From assembly GCA_030167865.1 (NCBI GenBank), contig JALAGF010001625.1:58644-78643 (forward strand): a DNA stretch of 20,000 nt. The letters run 5' to 3'. The stretch is from Craspedostauros australis (taxonomy: Eukaryota). Positions 4,601-19,684 of this stretch are shown here, piece after piece. The notes below the pieces were generated by a model. The model did no database searches. It had not been told where the DNA came from and worked only from the letters and a program-made list of their open reading frames with translations. How positions within the stretch are numbered: position 1 is the first letter of the stretch; each line of letters starts with the position of its first letter. The position numbers and the translations under genes were made by a program.

Positions 4601-6155
4601 TCCGCAAGTACATCTTGCCAACGGCATCGGATGATGAATCGCCTTGGAGTGTAGCTTGGAAGGTTTCGGCAGTGAGCTGTGGCTGATTGTAGTACCCAGC
4701 GGTCACAGAGGCCCCGGCGATCCAGATCTCTCCCGTGACGTTGTCTGGACGTTTTACACGAGTATCCGGGTCCACGATGATGATATCGATGGAGCTGTGC
4801 AGATTGCTGCGCTGTGCGATGGCGATGAATGGTTGGAGATCTTCACCTTCGCGGATGGTGGAAAGATGGGAGCCGTGATTGTAGCTGACACCAACGACGT
4901 TCTCTGCCAGTCCGTATGCTGCGAGGAACCAGTCCTTGCGTAGACCATGTGGACCAAATGCGTCAGAGAAGTGCTTTTCCGTGTCCAGCCGGATTGGCTC
5001 TGCGGCATTCTGGAAATGAAGCACGCTGGAGAGGTCCAGCTTGTGAGTAAGATTTGCCTTGGCCTCATTGAACTTGCGGGTGACCAACCGATACCCAAAG
5101 TCGGGAGCGGCACTGATGTGGCACTTGTGCTGGGACATGAGATCAATCCAGAGCAACGGGTTGCGGATGAACGAGACTAGTGATATCATGTGGGAATGGA
5201 AGGCGCCTGCCAATGGCGCAATGCCCATCTCGATGAGGCCCATGTCATGGTACTGCGGCAACCAAGAGCATGTGGCGATGCGTTTTGGGATGGCGCTTGT
5301 ATCACCCAACTGGTCTTGGAATGAAGCGAACCAGTAGCTCTGTACGAGCTCGATGTTGGCCCGCAGTGCTTCGTGGGTCACCATGACGCCCTTTGGGTTA
5401 CCGGTACTTCCAGATGTGTACTGGAGGAACGCCAGATCCGATCCTGCAATGTTTGGTTCATCGAAGGAAGGTGGCGGCGACGAGGAGCTGCCAGAGATGA
5501 GACTGGAAAGGAAGCCTTTCTTGGCTTGCTTGGAGTTGTTGTCGCTCTTGTTTTTGTTGGCGATGAATGGGTCGTGACGAATGATGCGATCGGTGACCTG
5601 GTACTTCACCCCGCTGGGCCACATGGCGCGACTTTTGGATGTTGGGTTGGCGCGATCGGCGGCACGGAGCAGATTGATGGATGTTTGGGTGAGGATGAGT
5701 GCTGGTGCACAATCCCCGATGACCTTGTTCATCTTGGTGAGCGACTTGACGAGCGGCGGCCCCGGAGGGTAGACCAACACGGCGGTCACGCCCGCACGCA
5801 GACATCCCAGAAAGATGGCGAAGAAGTGCAGACCGAAGTCGTAGCAGAGGACCACGCGGTCCCCTTTGTTGGTGCCCCATTCGTTGCGGAGGAGGTGGGC
5901 GCAGTGCCCCGCTTCATCCCAGAGCTGCTGGAAGGTGTAGTTGTTGGTTGCCTTGCCTTTTTCGTTGTACCAGGTGGAGAAGACGGTGTCGGACTTGAGT
6001 TCGACGACGAACTTGATATGGTCGATGAAGGACTTGTTTTGGATGGATTTGTGGATGATTTCATGCTCAGTGGTGATGACGTTGGCGATGCCGGCTTCGA
6101 TATCATCAACAACGATGGCGGGGTTGATATTGGAGGGTGGCGATGGGATTCTCAT
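1665..6155 (-). CDS. NRPS-like synthetase: fatty acyl-AMP ligase (FAAL) + acyl carrier domain + Pls/PosA-type membrane terminal domain with beta-helix-like repeats (~1496 aa)
   Basis: FAAL motifs: GDRVVLCY, AFLQYTSGSTGNPKGVMVTH, SWLPQYHDMGLI, AAEPIR, YGLAE, GEIWI, LRTGDYG, GRKKDIII, NYYPQDIE, KTTSSKIQR. Carrier motif WKDVGLSSM (Ser codon 4005-4007). Then TM pairs and three related units (AKWIVIGRY...WWFVDRL...GTP...MGANV; LKWVIIGKQRPGP...FGMDI; GTPMMN...QGADV). The ORF-track start at 6401 is TTG; in-frame ATGs lie at 6344 and 6155, and I chose 6155 (uncertain). One N at 3193 keeps the frame. Confidence 0.88.
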   Translation of the reverse strand: MRIPSPPSNINPAIVVDDIEAGIANVITTEHEIIHKSIQNKSFIDHIKFVVELKSDTVFSTWYNEKGKATNNYTFQQLWDEAGHCAHLLRNEWGTNKGDRVVLCYDFGLHFFAIFLGCLRAGVTAVLVYPPGPPLVKSLTKMNKVIGDCAPALILTQTSINLLRAADRANPTSKSRAMWPSGVKYQVTDRIIRHDPFIANKNKSDNNSKQAKKGFLSSLISGSSSSPPPSFDEPNIAGSDLAFLQYTSGSTGNPKGVMVTHEALRANIELVQSYWFASFQDQLGDTSAIPKRIATCSWLPQYHDMGLIEMGIAPLAGAFHSHMISLVSFIRNPLLWIDLMSQHKCHISAAPDFGYRLVTRKFNEAKANLTHKLDLSSVLHFQNAAEPIRLDTEKHFSDAFGPHGLRKDWFLAAYGLAENVVGVSYNHGSHLSTIREGEDLQPFIAIAQRSNLHSSIDIIIVDPDTRVKRPDNVTGEIWIAGASVTAGYYNQPQLTAETFQATLQGDSSSDAVGKMYLRTGDYGFYQDDYLYICGRKKDIIIVNGVNYYPQDIEHAVEEASSAVRPGCVAAFSSDETGNDGQLEIVFEIRANRADDAATVCQEIRKAVIEHIGLTPATIAAVEERTISKTTSSKIQRRCNRQRLHDGDQKMVLDVIGKSHFFSTQDGDIASQPKRLSLRKSVIEDVDIRDMDFYELVKSCIGSDVKAKDTWKDVGLSSMMELELRQSLAQRYNTSLPSDCFELFPTVVDLEVFLEASTGQALPTSLPKLKRLVTFPDEKPLAPLTSATIQFVGVLAILFMFALPIVPAYEIGKVLVNDDRAYELFFIDLSPYVWVWYPLVVPFWAITFTVEVILAKWIVIGRYREGYISQTDIYFLRWWFVDRLVHIWESFLGRFIMGTPLVVFFDYLMGANVHASSSIDEFIREFDLVDIGPDATVSEGIRCRMFGPCKDGCQGPTLRFRTIQVGASADIKGILCPGVKVGSNCQVSXTSVLVEGAQAPPNTTIRGNPGFIHSTRTHGATDAEADSNNDSLEMTTSETLPTTHSTAGNRRWIILGAMKMLWLLAELYFAFTCFLVVDILVRDELPDWRYARLLYWITSIGLTSTFFIVSSIMLKWVIIGKQRPGPACQSVPSELASWACDFHYSIGGAVLYGLTFHSSIWNVILLAFGMDIDLRSHVAAHAFLPSQLDLISVKRSFVSKSTFDIKQDGQYKAIKVEDSSIGLNVVCGPGVTVSRSLVSPATYFATNLVHDRHHPRYELVAGWELGRIILLNTILHVIMLVMVAASFIPAFELWMNVIKPQTPLGAVPVVVACVIIQTIVWLILLRAVELVTLAGSGSRTEPWCVPLYMVYQALCYSVQVWSFVSLLWGTPMMNTVLRMQGADVQGRLLYFGFRIYEAALVTFGDGAVVDESSISGHYGIFSTITLGKCYIEGIMHQRCFTLTRSVPTTQTACPSTIEHGPGKMVGDFGPSCSKQPQEPTQLSIRDGSCEEPSAKAE

Positions 6156-6417
6156 GTTGGAATGCGCTGTTGACACGGACAGGTAGCTGCAGATGTGGTA
6201 TGGGTATTGCGGTTGCTTTGATCTTGTTGAATTGCTTGATTTGTGAATCTGTTTGCCCTCGGACTGAAATTGTGAGGGGTTGGGAAGGTGAAAGCTTGTG
6301 TGGCAAGCATCGTTGTGCAGAGCAATCTGTTGCTGGCAACACATCTCGCTGAGCCGCTCGCCCTGCCTTCGGCAATTGGGCGCAAAATGCTCTCGCTTCA
6401 AGCTTCTGTGACCTGGT

Positions 6418-6540
6418 GAATTCCTTCACAGATTGTTCCATTGGTCGATCGAGGGAGGAATTCCTTCACAGTTTGTTCCATTGCCAGATCGAGGGAGGAA
6501 TTCCTTCACAGATTGTTCCATTGGCAGATCGAGGGAGGAA
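6418..6540. repeat. Tandem repeat, 3 x 40 bp, in the divergent intergenic region
   Basis: Unit GAATTCCTTCACAG(A/T)TTGTTCCATTG(G/C)(T/C)(C/A)GATCGAGGGAG starts at 6418, 6458 and 6498, followed by a partial GAA. There are no spacers. Confidence 0.95.
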
Positions 6541-7287
6541 GTTGCAGTTATGCTGAACGGCTACGAGTATTCTGATGTCAGTTTCACCGGCCATTTTTGC
6601 AGGGAGGATACGGTTAAAACCGCATCCTCCCACAAAACAACGAGTCACGGGGAGAGATATTTATTAGAGGCTTTTTGCATTCAGGGACACCCAATAATTT
6701 GTCCACAATTCCGAAAATTATGTGTTTCTGAATCTTGCGAGACTAATACAAGAGAAATCAGATGAGAAACAATGTGCTCGTGACTGGTGCAGTCTTGGAT
6801 ACGGATCGTGGAACTCTTTCAGGAGGAAGACGTGCGAATTGTTCGTGGAACGAGTTGCTCGTCCCAACCCGCCACAGAAACGGAAAGAGCAACGAACAGA
6901 AGAGAGGACATCCACGCTGATGGCACTTTTGGGCGCTTGTGTGGTGTGGATACAACTACTCATAGTCGAGCGCGCACGAGTGTCATAGTAGTACGATCTA
7001 GAATATCGTGCAAAGCGAGAGAGTTGCAAGAGAGAGAGAGAGCAAACGAAGATCGCATTGCCTCGGCAAGGGGAATGTGAGCAACGGCGGCGGAGATCCT
7101 TTTCTACGAATACGCGTACGCAAGCATTGCTTCAACGTGGCACAGCAACCTTGTTACATATTCTACAATACATACACACCGTATTAGTGCTTGTCCCACA
7201 GCAACCACAACCACAACCACAACCAGAATCAATCTGCAAGTGCAAGTGGGAGTGCAAGCGTCAGAACTGGAAACGAAAGCAGGCGCG

Positions 7288-8979
7288 ATGTCTTTGGCTG
7301 AACCCTTGCTGGACTTGCCCTCCGCCTCATCACTACAGCCAGCAAATGACTCTGCGAATGGTGCTCGCAGTGGTGCTGGCGAGACGGGCAATCCCCACTT
7401 ATACGGCACCGTTCACGACGGAGGGCAGAATGGAAGAGATCCATCATCATCTCCTTCGTTTCCGAGCGATGAACATACTTCTTCGCTTCTATGGCTGAAG
7501 CTGAGACGGGTTGCCAGCCAGCTGCTTTCTGAGATGGCAACCCCGCTGACAGATGACTCTGGGTCGCCTCGGTCTGTTCTGGTGGGATTGGCGACCATCC
7601 TTTCGGTTGGAACGATCCTTGGGCTCATCATTGATGCGATCGCTTCCGGCGGTTCTGAAAACGACGGAAGTGCAGATGGCGATGATGATGATGATGATGA
7701 TGGAACCACTTGCAAGTCCCTAGCAACTTTCAGCGCCATTCTGGGCTACTGCTACTTCTCGTGCTGGGGGATCTCCTTCTACCCACAGGCCCTGTCCAAC
7801 TTCCGTCGCAAATCCACGGATGGATTGAACCTGGACTTCTGCGTGTTGAACGTCCTTGGCTTCGCGTGCTACACGGCCTATACTCTGGCCTTCTACTGCA
7901 ACTCCACCATCCAACTTTTGTACCGCGAACGGTACGATGCAGACATCTCCGTCCAATCCAACGACGTCGCTTTTGCTGCCCATGCTCTCCTTCTGTCCTC
8001 CATCACGCTGGGCCAAATCGTTTACTACAACTACAGCTGCGGCAAAGCCAACACCAACACCAACAACGGCGGCAACAATGCTGGCAACGTCAGCCACAAC
8101 ACAGACAGCAATACTACCGACAACAACAACGACGATAACGACGACAGATCCAACGAGGTCTTGATCAGAGCCCCATTCTCAGGCCCGCTGTCATTGAGCC
8201 CACCCATCTTCATGTTGCTGACCCTTTTCCTCAGCATCATCATTTCATGCGCGTTGGGCCTTGTTTGGTCGCAGCATGCCACAAGCAAAGGCAACGACGA
8301 GAGTCAATACTTCGACAATCACGGTTACCCATCTGCACATCCGTACGAAGCAACGTCACTACAGCATTTTCTGTCGGCGGATGGACGGCATGATCCGTCT
8401 TGGTTTAGATCTCTTGGCGAACATTCTCGTGGCACCGATGTGAATGAGCATTCATCCACGATCAACAGGCTCTTTCGTGTCGGCAACTGGCTGGACTACA
8501 TCTACCTCCTGAGCTACATCAAAATTGCCATCTCCCTGATCAAGTACATCCCACAGGTCATCCAAAACAAGCAACGCCAATCCACTGAGGGCTGGAGCAT
8601 TTGGAACATCGTTCTTGACTTCACGGGTGGAACCCTCAGCACCGCTCAGCTCATCCTCGACTGCTACGCAGCGTCGGCTGGCAGTCCTAGCAGCTCGAGC
8701 TCTTTCTGGCACCTCGTCCAAGGCAACCTCGTCAAGCTCATGCTGGGATTGATCTCCATCTTCTTTGATGTCATCTTCCTCGTCCAGCACTACGTCCTGT
8801 ATCCCGAACCACCAACAGTGGAAGGCGATTCAGCTCTGCCGCAAGAATCCCAGGCACAAGAGGATTCCGATGCCAACGTTGATGGTGATGTTGGGGAAGC
8901 AGAAGGAGAGGAAGACGCCGATGCCGACAACGACAATGTTGTAGAGGGAGGAGAATGTCCACAGGCGGTCTTCGTTTGA
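7288..8979 (+). CDS. Cystinosin-like PQ-loop lysosomal/vacuolar transporter (~563 aa)
   Basis: Cystinosin/ERS1 signature segments: GYCYFSCWGISFYPQ (PQ 7783-7788), NFRRKSTDGLNLDF, NDVAFAAHA, YLLSYIKIAISLIKYIPQ (PQ 8551-8556), STEGWSIWNIVLDFTGGTLS, KLMLGLISIFFDVIFLVQHYVLY. The first in-frame ATG is 7288 (7240 is GTG). Confidence 0.92.
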   Translation: MSLAEPLLDLPSASSLQPANDSANGARSGAGETGNPHLYGTVHDGGQNGRDPSSSPSFPSDEHTSSLLWLKLRRVASQLLSEMATPLTDDSGSPRSVLVGLATILSVGTILGLIIDAIASGGSENDGSADGDDDDDDDGTTCKSLATFSAILGYCYFSCWGISFYPQALSNFRRKSTDGLNLDFCVLNVLGFACYTAYTLAFYCNSTIQLLYRERYDADISVQSNDVAFAAHALLLSSITLGQIVYYNYSCGKANTNTNNGGNNAGNVSHNTDSNTTDNNNDDNDDRSNEVLIRAPFSGPLSLSPPIFMLLTLFLSIIISCALGLVWSQHATSKGNDESQYFDNHGYPSAHPYEATSLQHFLSADGRHDPSWFRSLGEHSRGTDVNEHSSTINRLFRVGNWLDYIYLLSYIKIAISLIKYIPQVIQNKQRQSTEGWSIWNIVLDFTGGTLSTAQLILDCYAASAGSPSSSSSFWHLVQGNLVKLMLGLISIFFDVIFLVQHYVLYPEPPTVEGDSALPQESQAQEDSDANVDGDVGEAEGEEDADADNDNVVEGGECPQAVFV

Positions 8980-9541: not shown

Positions 9542-9804
9542 GTTGGTATGGTGTCGCGTCAGATGATGATGCTTTCTAGTCAGCGTCTGATAGCCTGTTG
9601 ATGGGTACGATGATGAGAGTGGCCGAGCTGGTCGTTTCGCAAGCCGTCGTACAGGACGACTATGGCATGATGAGTCATTGAACACAAGCGGATTGCTCAC
9701 TCAACGCACCTACTATACCATTCCATCTTCTCTCTCTCTCTCTCTGTCTCACTGTCTCTTTGTGCCGTGATCGACCAACACTCCATCGCTTATCCAAGAA
9801 TCGC

Positions 9805-9840
9805 GAGGACCACGAGGACCACGAGGACCACGAGGACCAC
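9805..9840. repeat. (GAGGACCAC)4 just upstream of the cyclophilin-like start, probably 5' UTR
   Basis: Four perfect 9-bp units directly before AAGGGCACCATG. A (CT)n tract at about 9729-9745 lies upstream. Confidence 0.9.
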
Positions 9841-9849
9841 AAGGGCACC

Positions 9850-11004
9850 ATGATGCAACGAAAAAAGCTGTCAAATCTCAGCAACCGCGTCACTGCGCAA
9901 AGATCCACACAAAGCAAAGCCTGCCTTGGCTTTGGTTTGTTGGCCATCGCCTCTGGCTTCGCGGTCCTCCTCGTCTCCTTCTGGACATTCTCCATCATCA
10001 ATCTCACCACGGAGACCAGCAGCTTGGGTGGCAGAAGCGACAATGTTCTTGACAGTAGCAGCAATGGCCATCGCAAAGGCGAGATGAGCGACGCCGAAAA
10101 GATGCTCTTGCGAAAACAGAGGCGGAACCACGATGGTCGACCGTCGATGACGCATGTGAACTTCACCAACGACGCGTTCCATCACCTTCAAGACACACAA
10201 CAGAAGGGATCTTCGGCGGTCGGGCAAGAAGACGATGGTACAGCATCTACCTTGCACCAAGCATCAGCAACAGCATCAGCAACAGCATCAGCAACAGTGT
10301 GCCCCAACCAGAATATTCTCAAGGACCTGACCGAGCGAGAATTGCATCCGCGTGCTGGAGCCAGGCACATGGTGGATCCCCCCGCAGGTGGAAACGTGAC
10401 TCTGGTTTGCTGCAAGACTACTGCCGGTCCCCTCAGCATCCTCATCCATCACAAGTGGGCGCCGCTGGGCGCACAGCGGGTGCTGGAGATGATCACATCT
10501 GGTTACATGAGCAAGCCGATACCCCTCATGCGTTGTATCCGAAACTTTATCTGCCAATTCGGTCTGCACTCCCTCGAGGAGTACAACAAACGGAAGCATC
10601 CCACGTTCGGAAAGTTTGCCCAATCGTTTCCGGACGACCCCAACTGGCTGCCCGAGGGAAAGCTGCATCGGGTGAACGACCAGGGCGTCAAGCGATTTGC
10701 CAAGGGGTACTTTGCGTTTGCTGGCGGGGGCAAGAGCAGCCGCACAAAGCAGCTCATCGTTGCGTTGAAAGAGAACCCTGGCCTCGCGGGGGGATCTCCG
10801 TGGGAGGTGCCGTGGGGTGAGGCAGTCGGCGAGTACTCCTTCCGCACGCTGAGTGCCATCAGTACCGCATACGGCGAGAAAGGGCCACCGCAGGGCAAGC
10901 TCATGAACCATGGATTCACGGCAGAGATGGCGCAACAGTACCCCGATTTGGACATGTTGGAGCAATGCACAGTCGTCGATCAGGTCAATCTGGATGTCAT
11001 ATAG
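9850..11004 (+). CDS. Cyclophilin-like peptidyl-prolyl isomerase domain protein with N-terminal type II membrane anchor (~384 aa)
   Basis: A basic N-terminus is followed by a hydrophobic helix (ACLGFGLLAIASGFAVLLVSFWTFSII, ~9919-9999) and a low-complexity stem. The domain reads CKTTAGPLSILIHHKWAPLGAQR...LMRCIRNFICQFG...FAFAGGGKSSRTKQL...PWGE...YGEKGPPQG...YPDLD. R-x4-F-x2-Q (10531-10557) matches the cyclophilin A R55/F60/Q63 spacing. First ATG is 9850. Confidence 0.8.
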   Translation: MMQRKKLSNLSNRVTAQRSTQSKACLGFGLLAIASGFAVLLVSFWTFSIINLTTETSSLGGRSDNVLDSSSNGHRKGEMSDAEKMLLRKQRRNHDGRPSMTHVNFTNDAFHHLQDTQQKGSSAVGQEDDGTASTLHQASATASATASATVCPNQNILKDLTERELHPRAGARHMVDPPAGGNVTLVCCKTTAGPLSILIHHKWAPLGAQRVLEMITSGYMSKPIPLMRCIRNFICQFGLHSLEEYNKRKHPTFGKFAQSFPDDPNWLPEGKLHRVNDQGVKRFAKGYFAFAGGGKSSRTKQLIVALKENPGLAGGSPWEVPWGEAVGEYSFRTLSAISTAYGEKGPPQGKLMNHGFTAEMAQQYPDLDMLEQCTVVDQVNLDVI

Positions 11005-11177: not shown

Positions 11178-11309
11178 GCACGCTGAAAGGCACGCTGAAA
11201 GGCACGCTGAAAGGCACGCTGAAAGGCACGCTGAAAGGCACGCTGAAAGGCACGCTGAAAGGCACGCTGAAAGGCACGCTGAAAGGCACGCTGAAAGGCA
11301 CGCTGAAAG
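11178..11309. repeat. Perfect 12-bp minisatellite (GCACGCTGAAAG) x11
   Basis: Eleven identical units in the convergent spacer between genes 4 and 5. They produce the spurious TLKG/ACLS/SVPF ORFs. Confidence 0.97.
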
Positions 11310-11714
11310 ACACGTGCACCACGAAACCACTACTCCCCATCACGGTCGGCTTGCGATATAGCCTTTCATACTTCCCATCAGCCTCCTGCGAATACTGAGG
11401 AGAATGTTGCTTTCCGCGCGCTTGTGCATGCGTCTGCTCTGTGCTCAACTCTACGCGATACGTGTTCTATGTAAGCATGATTGTAGTTTGGATGAGACAT
11501 TGGATGTGAATTGATACTACGAGCAGGATAGCACGCTCCAGAGAGAGCGAGAGACACTTGATGGAACGCTGACTCTCACAGGAGAGGGCGGGCACAGGCC
11601 CACGCGCAGGCACATACCAATACTAACGCTAATACTGATGCTAATAGTAGTACGATTCCCCGACGAGTAAGGGTACATCAAGGAAGTCGATCCCAGCGGT
11701 CCGCCTCCTGGTCC

Positions 11715-14700
11715 TTATTCGTCATCCCAAAACCGTGTCAGCACCTTGCGCTTTGGTGCAGGTTGCGCCTGCACCATGTCCAGCTGCGGTTGATCGTACA
11801 CCCGTTCTCCGAACAATCGCCTGATGTTCATGGCGGTCAATTCCGAGAATGACACGGCCGTGGCGTCGGCTGCGAGCAGATCGTATCGGGGATACGTACC
11901 GACGAAGGCGACGGTCCTCATCTCCACATCCTGGCCTGCCAAGGCTGCGTTGGGCGTCGTATCGAAGACGGTGCACTGGTCGGGTCGGCGTTCCATCCGA
12001 AGCGCAGCGCCAAGAAGCTGCTGGCTGTCGCGGTCGTAGTTGTCATCTGCTGTCACGCAGTGCTCTGGCGGGATGACGTTTTGCAGACCAGCAAAGTCCA
12101 GCAGCATCAGCGCTTGATCTCGCGTCAGGTGAGATGTGATGCCGCAGCCCATTTCGACGTCGAGCAAGGATTTGATCCATTGATGGATCCCTGCGACTGG
12201 TGCCACAGCAGGTATGTCCGCCGCGTCATCGCGGATGCCTTCTCCGTCTCCATTGCGGCCCGCTCCGAAAGAAGACCCTTGGCTGCTGGCGTCCTTCCAT
12301 CTCGATCGCTTTGATGTGATTTGATCTCTGTACTCCTGCGCGATCTGAAGAGACTGCTCCATGTCATCCGCCCAACCAAAGCCGTTGAGGATAGCCTCCT
12401 CCGGGCCAACGGTCAAAGCAAAGAGCACGTCTTCATTGCTGGGCATCGCATAACCGCGCTTCCATGCCACCTCCGTCCACGCATCGAATGCCACCTTGAA
12501 CAACTCATCGGTGCTGGGTTCTGTTGATGCCGTGCTCGCGGTTCCTTGTGCGCCGTTCGCTCTCGATGATGCGGCGGCATCCATCAACGGTTTCGACGAC
12601 TCAGACGCCGCGATTCCGTTCAAGGCCTCTTCGTAAGTTGACGAGATCGTTCGGATCTGCTCATCATTAAAATTGTGCGTCCACGCCAATAACCGCCGCA
12701 CGGATTCGTCGGGCTGCATGCGCATCGTCAGCTCGATTTGATCGATGGACGGCGAGTCGAAGCCGTGCTTTGCGGCCGTAGTGGCCCACGCGCTGGCCTG
12801 CGCGTCAAGCAAAGCCTCAAGTTGCTGCTTCTGTGCTTGCGCTTGTTGCGACGAGTGTTTGCCTGGTTGCTTGGTAGCTGCTTGATCCGGACTTGGCAGA
12901 GCCGTGTTGAGTCCAACACCACCGGTTTCACGATCAACCAGTTCATGTGCTCGGCCGTGCACCTTGGTGTTGATGATCTCCGTCAATTTGGATTGGTACC
13001 TGTGCGCCAACTCCTGCGCCTTCACTGCGTCGTCCGTCCATCCAAAGCCATCCATGATGACGATCGCTGCGTCATTCAGAACAGCTGCCGCAAGGACGGC
13101 TTCGGGTTCCGGTTCCGGCTGGCCGATCTCCTTCGCCAGCTCGCTCCATGCCACGAATTGGATCTCCAGCATGTCATTCTCGTTGATTGCTTCGAGACGA
13201 GTACTGACGTTCACCGGTGCTCCCAGCGGCAAGTCGGATCCTGACCCAGATACTGGCTTTCTACCGTGGTCGTTACCATTGGATCGCTGTTCTCGCAGTT
13301 GCTGCATGAAATGACGGTACGCAGCAACGATGCGATCGACTTGATTCGGATCTGCTGACCATCCGAACATGGTCTGGACAGCGATGTCGGGCGACATGGC
13401 CGTGCTTTGGACGATGAGATCGAAGGGCGGGTTGGGAAAGCCGTACTTGTTGGCGGTTGCCTCCCATGCATGCTTCACGATCGACAGCCGTTCCTGCTCA
13501 TTCATCGCTGGGTTCGCTCGTGCGGCGGTTGAATGCCCCGATCCAAGTTCGGCTGCACCCATCGCTATGGGATTGATGTCGTTGGTATTTGCAGCGGAAG
13601 CGGAAGCATTGGATGCATCATCAACTGGCTTTTCGATACCATTTTGCTCCGCCCATTCATCGAACAGCAGCTGGAATTGCAGATCGTGCTCCTGTGCAAT
13701 CTCCCTGCTCTCCAACAGATCCTTCGTCCAATAGAAGACATCTCGGACCGCCACCTCGGACTGAACCACAGATGCGCGACGCGCATCTTCCACCGTCGGC
13801 AGCCGGACGGCGAACTTCTTGGCGACTGCTGTCCAGGCTCTATATGACAGCCCGGTGAGGTCCACAATCACGCCTTCCAATCGAAGGATGGCGCCGAATT
13901 CCTGGAACGGTTTGTTGATGCGCGGCATGTACTGCGAGACACCGGTAGCGTAAACGGAAGTCTTGTGATCGATGAGGTTGCTGACTTCGATGGTGCTGAG
14001 CTCCGTGTACTCCAGCAAGTGGCGTTTGCGCGCTTCGAAGCTTGTCATCCCCCACTCGTTGTTGCGTCCTCGGAAGTACTCGGTATCGTAGGAGTAATCT
14101 GCGTAGTCATCTGTCCCACGACCGCGACCAAGAGCGACGTTAATATCGATGCCCAGACCGCCGCCGCCTTTCTGACCCGATCGACGTCGCTGGTACTCAG
14201 CCAGTTGCCGCATGTTGTGATCGTACTTGTCGTCATCGAAGACATCGTCCATGTCGCGTCCCTGAAAAGTGTTGTCGTTCGCATTGGTCGATTGATCAGC
14301 GCCGCTGCTCCCACCGGATGCGATCCTGCCCGTCTCCTGTTCCTTGCGCAACCATTCTGGGATGCTTGCGTCACCGACGTCGTTGTCAGCATCGCTGTTG
14401 TCCTCTTCGTCCTCGTCATCATCGTCCTCAATCTCGTTGTTGGACAGAATTCCACCTCTATCGCTGTACTCACCCGCTTCAGCCGTAGTTTTGCGACGGA
14501 CGAATGTTGGCCGAGGCCCCAGCGACTGCAGTGCATCCTTGGCGTATTGGTCAACGTCGATTGCCTGTTGTTGCTGCTGCTCCTGCTGTTGTCCATCGGC
14601 GGTGTTGTCGGCGCTGTCCAACTGTTTGCGCATCTCTGCTTCCTTTGCCATGTAGGCTTCGAAGTCAGCCTTTTGCTCTTCCTTCAGGCTTGGGTCGTCC

Positions 14701-17700
14701 TTGACACGTCCACCTCCGACAGCAGAAATAGAACGGTACAATGACTCTGAGACTTCAGCAGCATCAAGTTCCGTCGATGGAACATAGGTGGTGTCGCTGT
14801 CGTCGCTGGCGCCACTACTCGCGCTCGTCAAATCTACTGAAGATGTGTCGTCTTGATTCGCTTGTGCCTGCGCCTGCGCTGGTGCTTGCGATGCGATGGC
14901 CGCCGCCGCCGATGCTTCCAGTCCGGCTGCAGAATCCCGCTTCGTTCGAGATGGTCTTGGACCGATCGATGCCAAGATCTTGTCGGCATCGACGTCGCCG
15001 TCCTCGCTGACGACTTCGGAAATATCGTACTTCAAATTCGTTGGGAGATCCGTGTTCGCATCGTCGACACCAATTCCACCATTGCTGCTTGTACTCCTTT
15101 CGCCGTCACCACTTTCGTCGCTTCGGTCGGTCGAGGATAGTCCCGACATTTGCCGTCTTTCCGTCTCGAACTGTTGGAAGGCTTGCCATTGAGCTTTCAG
15201 CTCTTCCTTTTCTTCCGTCGTTTTCGCTCCAGCTCTCCTGTACATCGCGCGTAGTTTCTGTTCTTCCAGAGTGCCCAATTTGGAGACCGCCAGCTCGTCA
15301 TCTTCGATCGGAGCAGTGCCATCTTCAATGAGACTTTCAGTGCTATCACCTTCATACTCGTATGTGACTTCGTCCTCCTGAAAGAATGGTGTGTTCGGCG
15401 GCGGCCGTGTCGCCGACGGTTGCGGGACCGTTGCCTCCATGGGGGTTTGCTGGAGATCATCCTGAAAGAATGGTGTGTTTGGAGGTGTGGATGACACTGT
15501 TGTTGGCATTTCTGGGTCTCTTGACGAAACTCCATCGTCGTTCGCTCCCACCCTTCCTTCATCGGCAGATGGGAAGGACCAAGATGGGGGTGAGATGGTT
15601 TGGATTGGCTGGGAAGGCTTGTTATCGTAGCGACTGTCGTCGTCGGTTGCGTCATCCGATGATTGTCCAAACACATCTGAGAAATCCACGGGTTGGACAT
15701 CCTTGACCTGGTCGGCTCCTTCATTATCCTCTGGCTCCCTGTTGTCGATTGCGGATTGGAGGTAGTCAATTTCGGATTGCAGTTTGGTGATGCGAGATGG
15801 ATCGGTTGTTTTGGATATCAAGTCCCTCAGCGCGACAATGGCCTGTTGGTTCATGTCCGGGTCCGCTTGCGATGGTGCCTTCCATGCGGGCGTGGACGTA
15901 GACGTGGGCGTGGATGCACCATCTGCATTGGCGTCCTGGGCTGTCTCCGAGGTGGCGCTGCCTCGTGACAGCGGTGGGATCACTGACTTCCTTGGAGGTT
16001 CGTGCCATTCGAAGGGCATCTTTGGATTCTGCTCCGAAGATAGGCCGAATAGTTGCCTTGACTTTTCCTCCTCCGACACGTAGCGCTTCCAAGATTCCAA
16101 CTTGGCCGCGATCTCGGCTTCGTCGTCGCTATCGACGGTGTTGGCGCTGAGGTTGGTGACGCCGCCGCCGCCGCCGGTCTGACCTTCCGTGTCTTTTGCG
16201 TTGGAACGGGTCGCGGTTGCGATGGATCTGTACATCTGCCATTCCTTCATGGTCTCTGGGCGGATGGTTCCTTTGTTGGCCTCCTTGTCGATTTGTGATC
16301 TAAGCTCTTCGATGGTATCCTCGAGGATGTCCGAAACGGCCGTTTCATCAACGTCATCCTCAGAATCGGCCTGGCCTGTGCTCGCGCTCGCGCCAGTGCT
16401 TGTTGCCATTGCGCTGACGTAGTAGCCTGTCTCGTAGCTATTGCCGGAGCTGCTGCCATTGCCGTTGCTGTTGGTGTCCGAAGCGTCCATGTCTGTGCTT
16501 TGCGATCGTTTGGCCAACATTTCCTCGAGGCTTTGCAAGGCCCATTCGTCCAAGTCTTGCGTTTCGGAAGGGATTGCTGGCACTGTTGACGATGTTGCAG
16601 ATGTGGGCGAGGATGTTGAGGACGCTCCTGCTGCTGATGATGGTGACGACGACGAATTGTTGGCGGCTTTCGCAGGAGCACCGTCGTCGTGTTGTTGTTG
16701 TTGTTGTTGTGTGGCGTAGTACTCCTGGAACTCATCGTATTGTTGCTGCATGTGCAGGTTACGATCGTACTCCTGCTCTGCCTCCTTGAGGATGGACTCT
16801 GCGATGTCTGTGGTCTCATCGGCCCCAATGAATGTGAGCTCCATCTCCTCCTCGAGGAGCCGCTCGTACTCCTGCAATCGTTCCATTGCCATTTTCCGCT
16901 TTTCGGATTTGAGGGTGCGGTCCAGCTCCTGTTGGATGATGGAATCCACGATCCCTTCGGCATTGTCGGGAATACTGAATTGCTTCTCGTCGTCTTTCAT
17001 ATCTGCATCAAAGGAAGGAGTCTTGCTGGCATCAGCCCCGCCGTCTCTACCTAAGGGAGAGCTGACGTCTTCTCGTGATGGTTCGAGCAGCACATCGAGA
17101 GCGGCATCAAGGTTGGCCGGAGAAGTGGGGAGAGTTTGGTCCAGTTGTTGCTCCTGCCCCTGCTGCTGTTGAAGATGCTGATTTTGATTGCGTTCATTAC
17201 GGATGCTCTGCTTCATCTCATCCTGGATGGTGGCGTAATCTTTTCTGATGCCCTGTTCCTCTTTGTGAAACCACGAATCATCTTTTTGTTGCTGCTGCTG
17301 CTGCTGTGATTGTGTTGGTATATCGCCATCTTTACTGTTATTGTCATCGCTCATGTTCGGCAGCGGAAGCTTTGCGGTCGGATCACGCTCTTCCTCAACT
17401 GATGCAGCCCCACCGGCAGTAAGGATATCATCCAACGACGGCATGCCTTCGAAGAGACTATCGAAACTGGTGGCGACGACCTTGGGGGTGTCCTCGTTGG
17501 CATCATCTGTGCTATCCTTGGTATCTTCAGAATCTGCTTGATCGTCGATGGAGATTGGTTGCACCTTGGCCTTGGAAGCTTGCGTGGGCGAGTTATTGGT
17601 TGACATCCACGGGAAGATTCGATCTCTTTTGCGCACCCGTTCCGCATCCGACTCATCCTGCGTGCCGTATCGGTTTGGATAGCCAGCACCAACATTTCCT

Positions 17701-18239
17701 GTGCTAGTATTTTCATTGCCGCGGCCACGGCCACTGAGCTGTTGTTGCCGGCGTGTGAGGAATTCGTACAGGTCATCGGTGGTCGGAGATTGTCGTTGGG
17801 CAGTTTCGTTGGTTCCATCTTCTTCATCCCCACTGATACCATCGCTGTTGCCGTACCCACGTGACTCGTCTTCGTCTGGTCTAAATGACATGAATGCGAC
17901 GATCGAAGATCCTTTCACGATTGACGAATCCAGAGCGAGACGAGGGTGATGGCGGTGCTGAATTTGGGTTTGTCCGAATGCATTGCTCTGCATGCGTGAT
18001 GTCGAATGGACTGGCAATGGAACGGTGAAAGCATCTGCACCTGCGCCAGTGTTTGCACCTGAAATGGCCATCGTGGCGGTTAGCGCAAGCCCGGTGATTG
18101 CTGCGAGTCCGTACCGGGGTCGATGCGTCGGAATTGGCACTGGAATCTGATTGCCACCATGATCATGCTCATTCCGGTGTTCATTCTCATGTTCGTGGCG
18201 CTCCTGGCGGCGGCTGATGCAATTGCGCCGTCGAATCAT
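11715..18239 (-). CDS. Large, probably plastid-targeted protein (~2174 aa): acidic low-complexity N-terminal region plus a C-terminal degenerate HAD-superfamily (CbbY/beta-PGM/PYRP2-like) domain with 5 tandem cap repeats
   Basis: Uninterrupted 6.5-kb ORF with first ATG at 18239 (18392 is TTG). Hydrophobic YGLAAITGLALTATMAISG then ADA|FTVP, an ASAF-like motif (Phe at 18027-18029). HAD motif-I region FGAILRLEGVIVD (~13860-13898). C-terminal HAD core GIHQWIKSL...CGITSHL...AALRMERRPDQCTVFD...YDLLAADA...FSELTAMNIRRLF. Confidence 0.85.
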   Translation of the reverse strand: MIRRRNCISRRQERHEHENEHRNEHDHGGNQIPVPIPTHRPRYGLAAITGLALTATMAISGANTGAGADAFTVPLPVHSTSRMQSNAFGQTQIQHRHHPRLALDSSIVKGSSIVAFMSFRPDEDESRGYGNSDGISGDEEDGTNETAQRQSPTTDDLYEFLTRRQQQLSGRGRGNENTSTGNVGAGYPNRYGTQDESDAERVRKRDRIFPWMSTNNSPTQASKAKVQPISIDDQADSEDTKDSTDDANEDTPKVVATSFDSLFEGMPSLDDILTAGGAASVEEERDPTAKLPLPNMSDDNNSKDGDIPTQSQQQQQQQKDDSWFHKEEQGIRKDYATIQDEMKQSIRNERNQNQHLQQQQGQEQQLDQTLPTSPANLDAALDVLLEPSREDVSSPLGRDGGADASKTPSFDADMKDDEKQFSIPDNAEGIVDSIIQQELDRTLKSEKRKMAMERLQEYERLLEEEMELTFIGADETTDIAESILKEAEQEYDRNLHMQQQYDEFQEYYATQQQQQQHDDGAPAKAANNSSSSPSSAAGASSTSSPTSATSSTVPAIPSETQDLDEWALQSLEEMLAKRSQSTDMDASDTNSNGNGSSSGNSYETGYYVSAMATSTGASASTGQADSEDDVDETAVSDILEDTIEELRSQIDKEANKGTIRPETMKEWQMYRSIATATRSNAKDTEGQTGGGGGVTNLSANTVDSDDEAEIAAKLESWKRYVSEEEKSRQLFGLSSEQNPKMPFEWHEPPRKSVIPPLSRGSATSETAQDANADGASTPTSTSTPAWKAPSQADPDMNQQAIVALRDLISKTTDPSRITKLQSEIDYLQSAIDNREPEDNEGADQVKDVQPVDFSDVFGQSSDDATDDDSRYDNKPSQPIQTISPPSWSFPSADEGRVGANDDGVSSRDPEMPTTVSSTPPNTPFFQDDLQQTPMEATVPQPSATRPPPNTPFFQEDEVTYEYEGDSTESLIEDGTAPIEDDELAVSKLGTLEEQKLRAMYRRAGAKTTEEKEELKAQWQAFQQFETERRQMSGLSSTDRSDESGDGERSTSSNGGIGVDDANTDLPTNLKYDISEVVSEDGDVDADKILASIGPRPSRTKRDSAAGLEASAAAAIASQAPAQAQAQANQDDTSSVDLTSASSGASDDSDTTYVPSTELDAAEVSESLYRSISAVGGGRVKDDPSLKEEQKADFEAYMAKEAEMRKQLDSADNTADGQQQEQQQQQAIDVDQYAKDALQSLGPRPTFVRRKTTAEAGEYSDRGGILSNNEIEDDDDEDEEDNSDADNDVGDASIPEWLRKEQETGRIASGGSSGADQSTNANDNTFQGRDMDDVFDDDKYDHNMRQLAEYQRRRSGQKGGGGLGIDINVALGRGRGTDDYADYSYDTEYFRGRNNEWGMTSFEARKRHLLEYTELSTIEVSNLIDHKTSVYATGVSQYMPRINKPFQEFGAILRLEGVIVDLTGLSYRAWTAVAKKFAVRLPTVEDARRASVVQSEVAVRDVFYWTKDLLESREIAQEHDLQFQLLFDEWAEQNGIEKPVDDASNASASAANTNDINPIAMGAAELGSGHSTAARANPAMNEQERLSIVKHAWEATANKYGFPNPPFDLIVQSTAMSPDIAVQTMFGWSADPNQVDRIVAAYRHFMQQLREQRSNGNDHGRKPVSGSGSDLPLGAPVNVSTRLEAINENDMLEIQFVAWSELAKEIGQPEPEPEAVLAAAVLNDAAIVIMDGFGWTDDAVKAQELAHRYQSKLTEIINTKVHGRAHELVDRETGGVGLNTALPSPDQAATKQPGKHSSQQAQAQKQQLEALLDAQASAWATTAAKHGFDSPSIDQIELTMRMQPDESVRRLLAWTHNFNDEQIRTISSTYEEALNGIAASESSKPLMDAAASSRANGAQGTASTASTEPSTDELFKVAFDAWTEVAWKRGYAMPSNEDVLFALTVGPEEAILNGFGWADDMEQSLQIAQEYRDQITSKRSRWKDASSQGSSFGAGRNGDGEGIRDDAADIPAVAPVAGIHQWIKSLLDVEMGCGITSHLTRDQALMLLDFAGLQNVIPPEHCVTADDNYDRDSQQLLGAALRMERRPDQCTVFDTTPNAALAGQDVEMRTVAFVGTYPRYDLLAADATAVSFSELTAMNIRRLFGERVYDQPQLDMVQAQPAPKRKVLTRFWDDE
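18027..18239 (-). other. Putative bipartite plastid-targeting presequence (signal peptide + ASAF-type cleavage site)
   Basis: A hydrophobic stretch precedes A-D-A|F, followed by a Ser/Thr/Arg-rich transit-like region (FTVPLPVHSTSRMQS...). The n-region is unusually long (~40 aa), so the start is uncertain. Confidence 0.6.
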
Positions 18240-19684
18240 TGTGTGCGGTTTCTCTTGGAGTTGGAATTGTTGTCGTAATTGGAGTTGCAGTGGCAATTGT
18301 GGGAGATTTGTGAGTGCTTCCAAACTCCCAGCCTTTCTCTCTCGCGCCGCCTCGTTGTCCAGCCGCTTAGTTCTGTGCTCACGATTGCGCAACGATGCTC
18401 AACTGCGAAGATGGTATTGTACCAGTTCCAGTACCAGTGCCAGTACGAGGATGTGTATTGTGGTTGTCAGATGCTTGGTGCTTACACCACGTGTACCGAC
18501 GGTAATGAGTCTCCCACCACGATTGCAGAGAGTGGTTATCGCGGCACAAATATTGGTATTGCACGACCAAGAGCAGAGTCTTCCAGAAGGAATAGAAGGT
18601 ATAATAGCTGGAAGCGTGGAATGGTACACTAGAGTACTCCAGTGTGAAACGTGACCCTTCAACGCGTGGAGCTTTGGGTTTGCTTCTCTCTCTGTTGTGC
18701 TCTCTCTTCCCCAAGTCTCAGTAATACGAATCGATGCCCAAGGATGCGCTGCCGTCTGAGCTGACACTGATAGAGGTGAGGTGATCTTGATGCGGTTAGC
18801 CTCAGTAGTCGTACGACTAGTAGTATGGTACCAATGCGGATGCGACAGAAGGTGGAGTGGCGGAATACAAAGAATGACGCCAGACGCCAATGAAAGCGGA
18901 TGCTGCTCCTTTGCACACTCGTCCCGCTTGCGCTGACAGATGAGTTCTGCGTGCGATGAATCAGATGAAGCTTGTGGAATCGTGGAATGTGGTGAAAGAG
19001 TGTGTTGGTATGTTGGTGTGTTGGTGAAGTGATGGAGTGGTCGAACGCGTGGAATCTTCTGCTCGACAACCTGCTCCGCCCCTCGACGATACTTGCACCA
19101 TCTGCCACCAAACACGCTACAATCGAAAGTACCCGCATCCATCACCAGCTGTCTCATCGCAGAGAGGTGGCATCCCCATTTCCACCACCCACCAACACAA
19201 CACGACACAAACGGAAGCGAAGCGAAGCGGAACGGCAGCCGAGAGACATCTGTCACCACCCACGATCGCGGCAGTCACTGTTTCCGTCACCACGCAACGT
19301 GTGACGTCGGCAACAAACAGAGTCCAGGTGGTCGATTACGAGCTCTACTACGAGCTGCACACGGAATAACAACACAGGACCAACGCTCTTCGCTTCTTGC
19401 TATCACGAGGTCTGAGGCGGTGACATCATCGTTGACGCGAGGTCCATGTCGAGGGAGCAGCGACATCCACGACTGACGCACACCAAACCGTGCGTTCTGC
19501 GCCAATCATTGCGGTTCTTTCTTTCGTCTTTGGGACGCGGAACATCGAAACCAGGGACACGCGGCAAAATGTCGAGTATGACCCCAAAACCTCATGACTT
19601 AAATACGAACGACAGTTTCAGTGACGTTTGATATTTATTTGGTCATCACGTCTAAATTGATAGTATCATGCTGTCATGTGTCAT

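What the first reader, a model, noticed from the sequence alone, without database searches (positions are those of the whole stretch)
12330..13838. HAD domain with its helical cap region repeated five times in tandem
Seen: between HAD motif I and the rest of the core lie five ~51-53-aa units with the pattern AW-x3-A-x2-(F/Y/H)G-x3-P...(F)GW...(Y/H). They are AWTAVAKKFAVRLP (13838-13686), AWEATANKYGFPNP (13469-13317), AWSELAKEIGQPEP (13151-12996), AWATTAAKHGFDSP (12791-12633) and AWTEVAWKRGYAMP (12482-12330), separated by low-complexity linkers. Established: C1-type HAD enzymes have one helical cap inserted right after motif I, and it sets substrate specificity. Inference: the cap has been amplified into a multivalent array inside a single Rossmann core, an architecture I do not recognise. 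It suggests a binding or scaffolding role.
Basis: partly seen in the sequence, partly recalled or inferred. Interest (0 to 1): 0.75.

Follow-up and report, generated by a model that had tools for sequence, protein, structure and literature searches.

The report
Dead HAD enzyme with five lids
A very large diatom protein, probably sent to the chloroplast, ends in an enzyme-like HAD domain that has lost its catalytic residues and carries five copies of its helical lid instead of one; I found no description of this arrangement, and its purpose is unknown.

Summary
The region is the C-terminal third of one uninterrupted 2225-codon frame on the minus strand (11715-18392). Five homologous four-helix units of 71-85 aa lie between a HAD motif-I strand and the rest of one Rossmann-like core, joined by variable, predicted-disordered linkers. 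Leave-one-out HMMs recover each unit (27-49 bits). An isolated middle unit folds at pLDDT 92, and beta-phosphoglucomutase caps are its best PDB matches, although none reaches significance. Of 101 long homologues, 67 have five units and the rest have 1-4 or 6. Units group by position, so the copies are old and each is conserved.

The nucleophile Asp is Arg and Asp+2 is Glu in 59 of 59 aligned sequences, the motif III Lys is absent, and the second motif IV Asp is mostly Ser or Thr (51 of 59), never Asp or Glu.

My best reading is a plastid-targeted, non-catalytic HAD scaffold with five tethered lid modules. The function is inferred, not shown. I found no paper describing it.

The parts
11718..18239 (-). 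Coding sequence from the first ATG (ORF residue 52) to the last codon; the stop is at 11715-11717. It encodes 2174 aa with no interruption.
   Evidence: colinear with orthologues of 1229-1952 aa
18027..18239 (-). Probable two-part plastid-targeting presequence: a charged N-region, a hydrophobic stretch, then Ala-Phe.
   Evidence: Read by eye. A crude scan of 65 M-start rows (window plus long homologues) found a hydrophobic stretch in 47 and [AGSC]F soon after it in 39. No targeting predictor was available, so this is an inference.
13911..18026 (-). N-terminal region of about 1370 aa, rich in D, S, A, E and Q, with conserved short islands. No family was found for it.
   Evidence: Pfam found nothing at threshold. 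The A2 profile matched nothing in the PDB here. The ESM Atlas gave no usable hit. The islands are shared with long homologues that carry 1-3 units.
13857..13910 (-). Strand beta-1 with the degenerate motif I (L-R-L-E-G-V-I-V-D). Arg replaces the nucleophile Asp and Glu replaces Asp+2.
   Evidence: R 59/59, E 59/59, G 59/59; AF2 strand at C-terminal residues 6-10
13644..13856 (-). Cap unit U1 (four helices).
   Evidence: hhalign 99.1%, E 6.9e-19
13500..13643 (-). Linker 1, predicted disordered, 30-50 aa across orthologues.
   Evidence: pLDDT below 50; low conservation, 0.29
13275..13499 (-). Cap unit U2
   Evidence: 98.3%, E 1.1e-14
13182..13274 (-). Linker 2, disordered, 14-36 aa
12960..13181 (-). 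Cap unit U3
   Evidence: 98.0%, E 2.4e-13; folded alone at pLDDT 92.1 and pTM 0.80; top PDB matches are beta-PGM chains
12852..12959 (-). Linker 3, disordered, 12-36 aa
12597..12851 (-). Cap unit U4
   Evidence: 98.0%, E 2.2e-13
12513..12596 (-). Linker 4, disordered, 17-37 aa
12264..12512 (-). Cap unit U5
   Evidence: 98.2%, E 6.2e-14
12201..12263 (-). Linker 5 between U5 and the core, 9-23 aa
11766..12200 (-). Remainder of the HAD Rossmann-like core. Motif II Ser is kept, the motif III Lys is absent, and motif IV reads F-D-T-T. The family-specific E-R-R-P-D and N-I-R-R-L-F motifs are also here.
   Evidence: Weak Pfam HAD_2 match at ORF residues 2061-2162; column counts; AF2 strands at 588-592, 646-650, 665-669 and 683-685; Foldseek against beta-PGM; motif coordinates
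11718..11765 (-). Conserved basic-then-acidic tail ending F-W-D-D-E

Best explanation
This is the C-terminal module of a large diatom protein that is probably plastid-targeted. It is one HAD-fold (beta-phosphoglucomutase-type, subfamily IA) domain whose C1 cap, normally a single four-helix lid inserted right after motif I, has been copied. Five paralogous lids now sit on flexible linkers between strand beta-1 and the rest of the core.

The domain is a pseudoenzyme. Arg occupies the nucleophile position, Glu the acid/base position, the motif III Lys is gone, and the second motif IV Asp is mostly Ser or Thr, never acidic. Aspartyl-phosphate chemistry with Mg2+ is therefore not expected.

The most likely working mode is a non-catalytic scaffold or reader. 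U2-U5 are mostly acidic beads on a string, each conserved in its own position, and probably offer four further binding surfaces.

What is shown:
- the repeat, its homology to HAD caps, and the single split core
- the loss of catalytic residues
- conservation of the architecture across diatoms

What is inferred:
- plastid targeting
- lack of activity
- U1 as the resident lid
- a binding or scaffolding role

No partner is known.
For: - Repeat: (leave-one-out 27-49 bits).
- Units are caps: (E 8.9e-20 to 6w04_A, covering motif I, cap and core).
- Fold: mean pLDDT 79.3; units above 90; linkers below 50; strand 6-10 plus core strands after residue 588; 82 PDB matches at E<=1e-3, and the rows listed are beta-PGM and other HAD phosphatase structures; U3 alone.
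- Dead site: R 59/59; E 59/59; S/T 59/59 at motif II; no conserved K; motif IV second position S/T 51/59, never D or E; RxE in 91 of 102 long proteins, none with DxD.
- Conservation: five units in 56 of 59; n=101 long homologues: 1 unit in 10, 2 in 8, 3 in 10, 4 in 4, 5 in 67, 6 in 2; units 0.44-0.58, linkers 0.13-0.29 with variable length, core 0.74.
- Same gene with fewer caps elsewhere.
- Charge: (median -1 for U1, -4 to -7 for U2-U5).
- Targeting.
- Precedent for a non-catalytic, protein-binding HAD: PcrP, PMC12632274 (abstract read).
Against: - The window's own sequence does not reach Pfam's HAD_2 cut-off (18.1 bits against 23.8) and alone finds nothing in the PDB. The HAD assignment rests on profiles of relatives.
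- A profile of the five window units alone found no HAD chain in the PDB, only two designed TIM barrels at E about 0.03.
- Foldseek E-values for the isolated unit are not significant (0.26-3), and the whole-model match has TM about 0.5 with rmsd 13-16 A.
- The unit tree is a quick tree on 80 columns: 57 of its 118 inner branches fall below 80% support and only 14 reach 95%.
- I could not see the model's coordinates or PAE, so which lid sits on the core is unknown.
- No activity, localisation, partner or phenotype data exist.
- The motif II Ser/Thr and the first motif IV Asp are retained, so some ligand binding, or even an unorthodox activity, is not excluded.
- 18 of the 65 M-start rows show no N-terminal hydrophobic stretch. 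These may be truncated gene models, but that is my assumption.
Confidence: 0.55

Rival explanations
1. Phospho-metabolite sensor. The dead active site still binds an anionic ligand, such as a sugar phosphate, through the invariant Arg and the retained motif II Ser/Thr. The five lids are alternative closures that report or tune ligand occupancy.
For: Arg is invariant at the nucleophile position and Ser/Thr is kept at motif II in 59 of 59. The core is the most conserved part (0.74). The relatives' nearest solved kin are sugar-phosphate enzymes.
Against: The motif III Lys and the Mg-binding Asp are gone. In the family consensus a Pro aligns with the Arg of the beta-PGM cap loop (alignment 3); that this Arg binds substrate phosphate is recalled, not tested. 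In one-cap relatives the nucleophile position is variable, so no common ligand site is evident. No ligand test was possible.
Confidence: 0.15
2. Network former. Lids of one molecule close over the dead cores of other molecules (five lids to one core). Together with the roughly 1400-aa disordered arm, this builds a multivalent plastid assembly or condensate.
For: The array is a 5:1 arrangement of structured modules on disordered linkers, next to a long low-complexity N-terminal region. Cap-core closure is the native interaction of this fold (established knowledge of C1-capped HADs, recalled).
Against: There is no evidence of self-association. Main-text word searches of two diatom pyrenoid preprints found no HAD or phosphatase term, and a full-text search for diatom + pyrenoid + haloacid dehalogenase found 0 papers. 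One-cap long forms exist (10 of 101), so multivalency is not needed for the basic function.
Confidence: 0.1
3. Active phosphatase with five interchangeable specificity lids, working as a multi-substrate 'Swiss-army' enzyme.
For: In C1-capped HADs the cap sets substrate specificity (established, recalled). JGI's automatic name for many homologues is 'beta-phosphoglucomutase-like phosphatase'.
Against: The nucleophile Asp is Arg and Asp+2 is Glu in 59 of 59. There is no motif III Lys and no second motif IV Asp. None of 102 long proteins has DxD.
Confidence: 0.04
4. Artefact or junk: an assembly or gene-model error, a recent low-complexity expansion, or repeats that are spliced out.
For: The linkers are low in complexity. 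There is no RNA evidence for this organism.
Against: There is no DNA-level repeat. Five units occur in 67 of 101 long homologues from independent sources, including four transcript-derived proteins. Conservation is position-specific. The 6.7-kb frame is open throughout.
Confidence: 0.02

Closest known systems
Beta-phosphoglucomutase-type HAD enzymes, subfamily IA with a C1 cap (e.g. 1lvh, 3nas, 4gib, 6w04)
   Same: Same fold and the same insertion point: a four-helix cap directly after the motif I strand. The family profile matches these chains at E 8.9e-20 to 1e-12. They are the top Foldseek matches for the whole model and for a single unit.
   Different: Those enzymes have one cap and a complete D-x-D, S/T, K, (E/D)-D catalytic set. 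Here there are five caps on disordered linkers, and three of the four motifs are replaced at their key residue.
One-cap relatives in other algae (P0150 Tribonema minus, P0200 Closterium; P0184, name cut off 'Chatto...') and, as a lead only, Streptophyta chloroplast HAD clusters of the PYRP2 / PYRP2-related / 'CBBY-like' kind
   Same: They share the pre-motif-I extension, the W-T-x-D cap motif, the R-P-P / E-R-R-P-D loop and the N-(V/I)-R-R-L-F helix. Most also lack the nucleophile Asp. The language-model nearest clusters of P0155 are Streptophyta HAD families. At4g11570 is PYRP2 and At3g10970 is a PYRP2-related HAD according to PMC8889267 (passages read).
   Different: They have one cap, are 250-460 aa long, and have no long disordered arm. 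Orthology to PYRP2 was not tested. Atlas scores are not alignments.
CbbY xylulose-1,5-bisphosphate phosphatase (4uar, 4uav)
   Same: A plastid or photosynthetic HAD IA protein with a C1 cap. It is hit by the family profile at E 2.1e-7 to 2.5e-6.
   Different: The match is weaker than to beta-PGM types. CbbY is an active enzyme with one cap.
PcrP (PA2803 subfamily), a non-catalytic HAD of Pseudomonas aeruginosa
   Same: A HAD-fold protein that lacks catalytic activity and binds protein partners instead (abstract of PMC12632274). It is a precedent for the proposed working mode.
   Different: It is a small bacterial protein with a single cap and was not compared by sequence here. It is only a functional analogy.
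Tim50, whose FCP1-like HAD domain serves as a presequence receptor in mitochondrial import (recalled, from no call)
   Same: A catalytically silent HAD-fold domain used as a binding module in an organelle.
   Different: It belongs to a different HAD branch with no C1 cap and has no repeats. It was not tested here.
Pyrenoid linker proteins (PYCO1, EPYC1)
   Same: Plastid proteins with several repeated modules on disordered spacers (PMC10288592: search listing and start of abstract only).
   Different: Their repeats are short sticker motifs, not folded enzyme subdomains. I found no link between this protein and pyrenoids.

Membership tests
HAD superfamily (Pfam HAD_2 / Hydrolase) | Own sequence reaches the Pfam gathering score | tested here: not met
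   HAD_2 scores 13.1 bits on the whole protein and 18.1 bits on the 731-aa C-terminus, against a cut-off of 23.8. Only profile positions 76-177 match.
HAD superfamily (Pfam HAD_2 / Hydrolase) | Homology shown through a profile of relatives | tested here: met
   The A1 profile gives 56 PDB HAD chains at E<=0.01, best 8.9e-20. 29 of 35 A1 members match HAD_2 and Hydrolase. 6 of 6 one-cap relatives match HAD_2 end to end.
HAD superfamily | Rossmann-like core fold | tested here: met
   The AF2 core has strands at 6-10, 588-592, 646-650, 665-669 and 683-685. Foldseek to beta-PGM gives E 1.2e-5 and target TM about 0.5. The squiggle and flap elements were not examined.
HAD superfamily, catalytic members | Motif I D-x-D (nucleophile and acid/base Asp) | tested here: not met
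   R-x-E in 59 of 59 aligned sequences and in 60 of 60 rows. None of 102 long proteins has D-x-D.
HAD superfamily, catalytic members | Motif II Ser/Thr | tested here: met
   S in 52 and T in 7 of 59.
HAD superfamily, catalytic members | Motif III Lys | tested here: not met
   No conserved Lys in the aligned segment. The commonest residues are G, Y, D, R, D, S; the column correspondence comes from the alignments.
HAD superfamily, catalytic members | Motif IV acidic pair | tested here: not met
   The first position is Asp in 56 of 59. The second, the canonical Mg ligand, is S or T in 51 of 59 and never D or E.
HAD superfamily, catalytic members | Phosphatase or mutase activity | not testable with these tools
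   This needs an enzyme assay of the recombinant module.
HAD subfamily IA, C1-capped (beta-PGM type) | Helical cap inserted directly after the motif I strand | tested here: met
   U1 starts immediately after motif I. All five unit profiles map to residues ~199-267 of P0155, just after its motif I at 191, inside its HAD_2 match at 190-365.
HAD subfamily IA, C1-capped (beta-PGM type) | Cap is a four-helix bundle | tested here: met
   Each unit is predicted as four helices in a long-short-short-long pattern. U3 alone gives pLDDT 92.1 and TM 0.64-0.68 to beta-PGM chains over about 70 columns.
HAD subfamily IA, C1-capped (beta-PGM type) | A single cap per core | tested here: not met
   The window has five caps, as do 67 of 101 long homologues.
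CbbY / PYRP2-type plastid HAD phosphatases | Orthology (closest kin by tree or reciprocal search) | tested here: inconclusive
   CbbY is hit at E 2e-7, weaker than beta-PGM types. The Atlas lists PYRP2-type and CBBY-like clusters near a one-cap relative.
Pyrenoid linker proteins | Repeated Rubisco-binding sticker motifs and pyrenoid localisation | not tested
   Only text searches were made: 0 papers for diatom + pyrenoid + haloacid dehalogenase, and no HAD term in the main text of two pyrenoid preprints. Their supplements are closed.

The most novel reading that the evidence does not exclude
The lid-core closure of an enzyme fold has been repurposed as a 'sticker' interaction. Each of the five lids can close over the catalytically dead core of another molecule. 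The protein, with its roughly 1400-aa disordered arm, would then build a multivalent network or condensate inside the diatom plastid, and lid number (1, 2, 3, 5 or 6 in different lineages) would tune its valency.
Probability: 0.1. Interest if true: 0.85.

Novelty: new variant of a known kind. Interest (0 to 1): 0.6.

Why it matters
HAD enzymes are one of the largest enzyme superfamilies, and their classification rests on cap type (recalled: C0, C1, C2). An internal array of caps within one core is not among those types as I recall them. My literature searches found no description of one.

The family shows a graded natural series of 1, 2, 3, 4, 5 and 6 caps in the same gene. That makes it a clean case of a subdomain being amplified inside its parent domain after catalysis was lost.

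The protein is large, well conserved across diatoms and probably plastid-targeted. It therefore likely has an unrecognised role in diatom plastids. It also offers a tractable model for how pseudoenzymes acquire multivalent binding functions.

Tried and rejected
- Pfam on the whole protein and on each unit alone gave no HAD hit for any single unit. U4 gave a sub-threshold Death-domain match (21.2 bits against a cut-off of 22.6), which I take as chance likeness between helical bundles.
- phmmer of U5 plus core against PDB sequences gave 0 hits.
- A profile of the five window units alone against PDB sequences gave only two designed TIM barrels (E about 0.03) and no HAD chain. The cap assignment therefore rests on deeper profiles.
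- The whole-orthologue profile (A2) against the PDB gave nothing for the N-terminal 1400 aa, and only a beta-PGM match at motif I.
- The ESM Atlas gave no usable hit for the N-terminal region.
Names and taxa of the long forms with 1-3 units therefore stayed unknown. A later homologue search with a one-cap protein named only Tribonema minus and Closterium, and a profile search added 'Chatto...'.
- The pyrenoid idea has no support from text searches. bioRxiv supplements are closed, so proteome tables that might list an orthologue were not seen.
- I considered a recent DNA-level duplication and rejected it, because there are no DNA repeats.
- I considered five decayed whole HAD domains and rejected it. 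The linkers are only 9-50 aa and carry no core motifs.
- I did not run complex prediction. No partner is known, and a split-core design would pass trivially.
- The careful tree did not finish in the time allowed, so only the quick tree is reported.
Full report
**What is there.** The finding lies in the C-terminal third of a single uninterrupted reading frame on the minus strand, window 11715..18392 (2225 codons as listed). The first ATG is at 18239-18237, giving a 2174-aa protein. The five 'AW' anchors are at ORF residues 1519, 1642, 1748, 1868 and 1971.

**Is the repeat real?**
- Eighty-residue windows around the five anchors align with only 1-2-residue gaps, at 15-30% pairwise identity.
- In 9 of 10 pairs no shuffle out of 500 reached the observed local-alignment score (z 6.4-17.3). 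U3-U4 is the weak pair (z 2.2; 19 of 500).
- An HMM built from any four units recovers the fifth at 27.2-48.8 bits. It finds nothing else in the 2225 aa beyond one -3.1-bit noise hit.
- At DNA level the units share only three short chance-like matches, so the duplications are old.
It has four helices over 71-85 aa, starting about 12 residues before 'AW'.

**Is it a HAD domain, and are the units caps?** The window's own sequence is a poor witness.
- Pfam HAD_2 reaches only 13.1-18.1 bits against a cut-off of 23.8, and only over the second half of the profile.
- phmmer of U5 plus core finds nothing in the PDB.
- A profile of the five window units alone finds no HAD chain.

Relatives settle the question.
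- A search of 1.84 billion representatives found 315 proteins at E<=1e-3 and 189 at E<=1e-10. These include short one-unit proteins.
- I aligned the window's U5 plus core with 34 such proteins (A1). The resulting profile hits 56 solved HAD chains at E<=0.01. The best is 6w04_A (HAD IA variant 3, E 8.9e-20). Beta-phosphoglucomutases score 1e-12 to 5e-16 and CbbY scores 2e-7. The best alignments run from motif I through cap and core.
- 29 of 35 A1 members match Pfam HAD_2 and Hydrolase. 6 of 6 tested one-unit relatives match HAD_2 over positions 1 or 2 to 177 or 178 of 178, above threshold.
- I cut each of the five unit profiles from the 59-row orthologue alignment. Each aligns by hhalign to the same segment of a 27-row one-unit profile, at probability 98.0-99.1% and E 6.9e-19 to 2.4e-13. 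That segment is P0155 residues ~199-267, which follows its motif I at 191 and lies inside its HAD_2 match at 190-365.

**Structure prediction.**
- AlphaFold2 on the 731-aa C-terminus with 59 sequences gave mean pLDDT 79.3 and pTM 0.44.
- Every unit is four helices in a long-short-short-long pattern, with most blocks above 90.
- The five linkers fall below 50.
- The strands come from residues 6-10 (before U1) and from 588-685 (after U5).
- Because DSSP strands need partners and no other strands exist, I infer one sheet built from both ends. I could not see the coordinates.
- Foldseek of the whole model gave 82 PDB matches at E<=1e-3. The rows listed are beta-PGM and other HAD phosphatase structures, with target TM about 0.5 and high rmsd.
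- The middle unit U3 folded alone at pLDDT 92.1 and pTM 0.80.
- U3's top PDB matches are beta-PGM chains: probability 0.98-0.99, TM 0.64-0.68, rmsd 2.5-3.6 A over about 70 columns, 23-28% identity. For so short a query no E-value reaches significance.

The counts below are from the 59-row alignment.

| Motif position | Canonical residue | Found |
|---|---|---|
| Motif I, nucleophile | Asp | Arg in 59/59 |
| Motif I, +2 | Asp | Glu in 59/59 |
| Motif II | Ser/Thr | kept, 59/59 |
| Motif III | Lys | no conserved Lys |
| Motif IV, first position | acidic | Asp in 56/59 |
| Motif IV, second position | Asp | Ser or Thr in 51/59, never Asp or Glu |

Among 102 long proteins including the window, 91 have R-x-E and none has D-x-D. 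The segment before and including motif I is the most conserved part (0.89), followed by the core (0.74). The fold is therefore under strong constraint without the chemistry.

**Distribution and history.**
- All 59 long homologues from the first search cover 80-100% of the C-terminal query. The readable names are diatoms: Cylindrotheca closterium, Fistulifera solaris, Bacillariaceae sp., and two cut-off names, 'Stauro...' and 'Pseud...'.
- The unit HMM finds five units in 56 of these 59, six in 2 and four in 1.
- Over all 101 homologues of at least 1000 aa, the counts are 1 unit in 10, 2 in 8, 3 in 10, 4 in 4, 5 in 67 and 6 in 2. Partial models may undercount.
- The long forms with 1-3 units share the conserved N-terminal islands, so this is the same gene with fewer lids.
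- In a quick tree of 121 units the labels cluster by position (27 changes against a shuffled mean of 89; 0 of 200 shuffles as low). Most U5 units form one group that also holds three of the 14 U4 units. Support is weak: 57 of 118 inner branches fall below 80% support.
- Units are conserved (0.44-0.58), while linkers are not (0.13-0.29) and vary in length.
- Four transcript-derived orthologues keep all five units.

**The rest of the protein.**
- The N-terminus has a charged stretch, a hydrophobic stretch and then Ala-Phe. In a crude scan of 65 M-start rows, 47 had the hydrophobic stretch and 39 had [AGSC]F soon after it; 7 rows without an M start were skipped.
- This looks like the diatom two-part plastid signal. 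That motif is recalled, and no predictor was run.
- About 1370 aa follow that are rich in D, S, A, E and Q, with conserved islands but no detectable family.

**How it most likely works.** I commit to a non-catalytic scaffold.
- One dead HAD core has U1 as its resident lid. U1 is attached at the hinge, is near neutral in charge, and is most like the lone cap elsewhere.
- Four further lids, mostly acidic (median net charge -4 to -7), are tethered as independent binding modules.
- The architecture, the loss of catalytic residues and the conservation are shown. Targeting, inactivity and the binding role are inferred.
- A non-catalytic, partner-binding HAD has a precedent in PcrP (PMC12632274, abstract).
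- The rivals are a phospho-ligand sensor, a lid-core network former, an active multi-lid enzyme, and an artefact. They are weighed in their own sections.

**Novelty.** Seven full-text searches found no paper on a HAD with tandem caps or on this protein. The library lacks most subscription journals, so this does not prove the arrangement is undescribed. I rate it a new variant of a known kind: a known fold and a known kind of pseudoenzyme, with an internal five-fold cap array that I have not seen described.

**Left open.**
- Orthology to plant PYRP2-type proteins; the Atlas result is only a lead.
- Which lid docks on the core.
- Any partner, location or phenotype.
- Supplements of the pyrenoid preprints (closed).

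Noticed in passing
window 13911-18026 (-): The N-terminal region of about 1370 aa has no detectable family but holds conserved islands. These include two copies of P-P-N-T-P-F-F-Q (15462-15485 and 15378-15401), two copies of G-P-R-P followed by basic residues (14952-14963 and 14508-14519), and M-K-E-W-Q-M-Y-R (16227-16250). Homologues with fewer caps share the islands.
   Followed up: partly
window 11811-11828 and 11718-11732 (-): A helix motif N-I-R-R-L-F after the HAD core is conserved from diatoms to green-alga-like one-cap relatives. The protein ends in a conserved F-W-D-D-E tail after a basic patch. Neither belongs to the canonical HAD fold.
   Followed up: partly
window 12606-12839 (-), unit U4: U4 alone gives a sub-threshold Pfam Death-domain match (21.2 bits, cut-off 22.6, E 3.1e-4). 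I take this as chance likeness between helical bundles.
   Followed up: no
window 11178-11314: A perfect-looking 12-nt tandem repeat (GCACGCTGAAAG, 11.4 copies, 99% matches) lies in the spacer between this gene's 3' end and the neighbouring cyclophilin-like frame. It produces spurious ORFs in several frames.
   Followed up: no
window 1668-6401 (-), 7240-8976 (+), 9760-11001 (+): The neighbouring long frames are a 1578-aa AMP-binding (DIP2-like) protein, a protein with two PQ-loop repeats, and a cyclophilin-type isomerase-like protein that also contains a 9-nt tandem repeat at 9804-9844. I see no functional link to the finding.
   Followed up: partly
window 6418-6540: A 40-nt tandem repeat (3.1 copies, 92% matches) lies just upstream of the AMP-binding frame.
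   Followed up: no
P0024 and P0046 (homologues): Two homologues carry six cap units. The extra unit sits between the fourth and last units and scores low (28-34 bits). P0060 shows only four.
   Followed up: no
P0196 (one-cap relative): Among the sequences I read, this one-cap relative alone keeps Asp at the nucleophile position (F-D-W-E-G) and a G-K-P motif III. It may mark the still-catalytic edge of the family.
   Followed up: no
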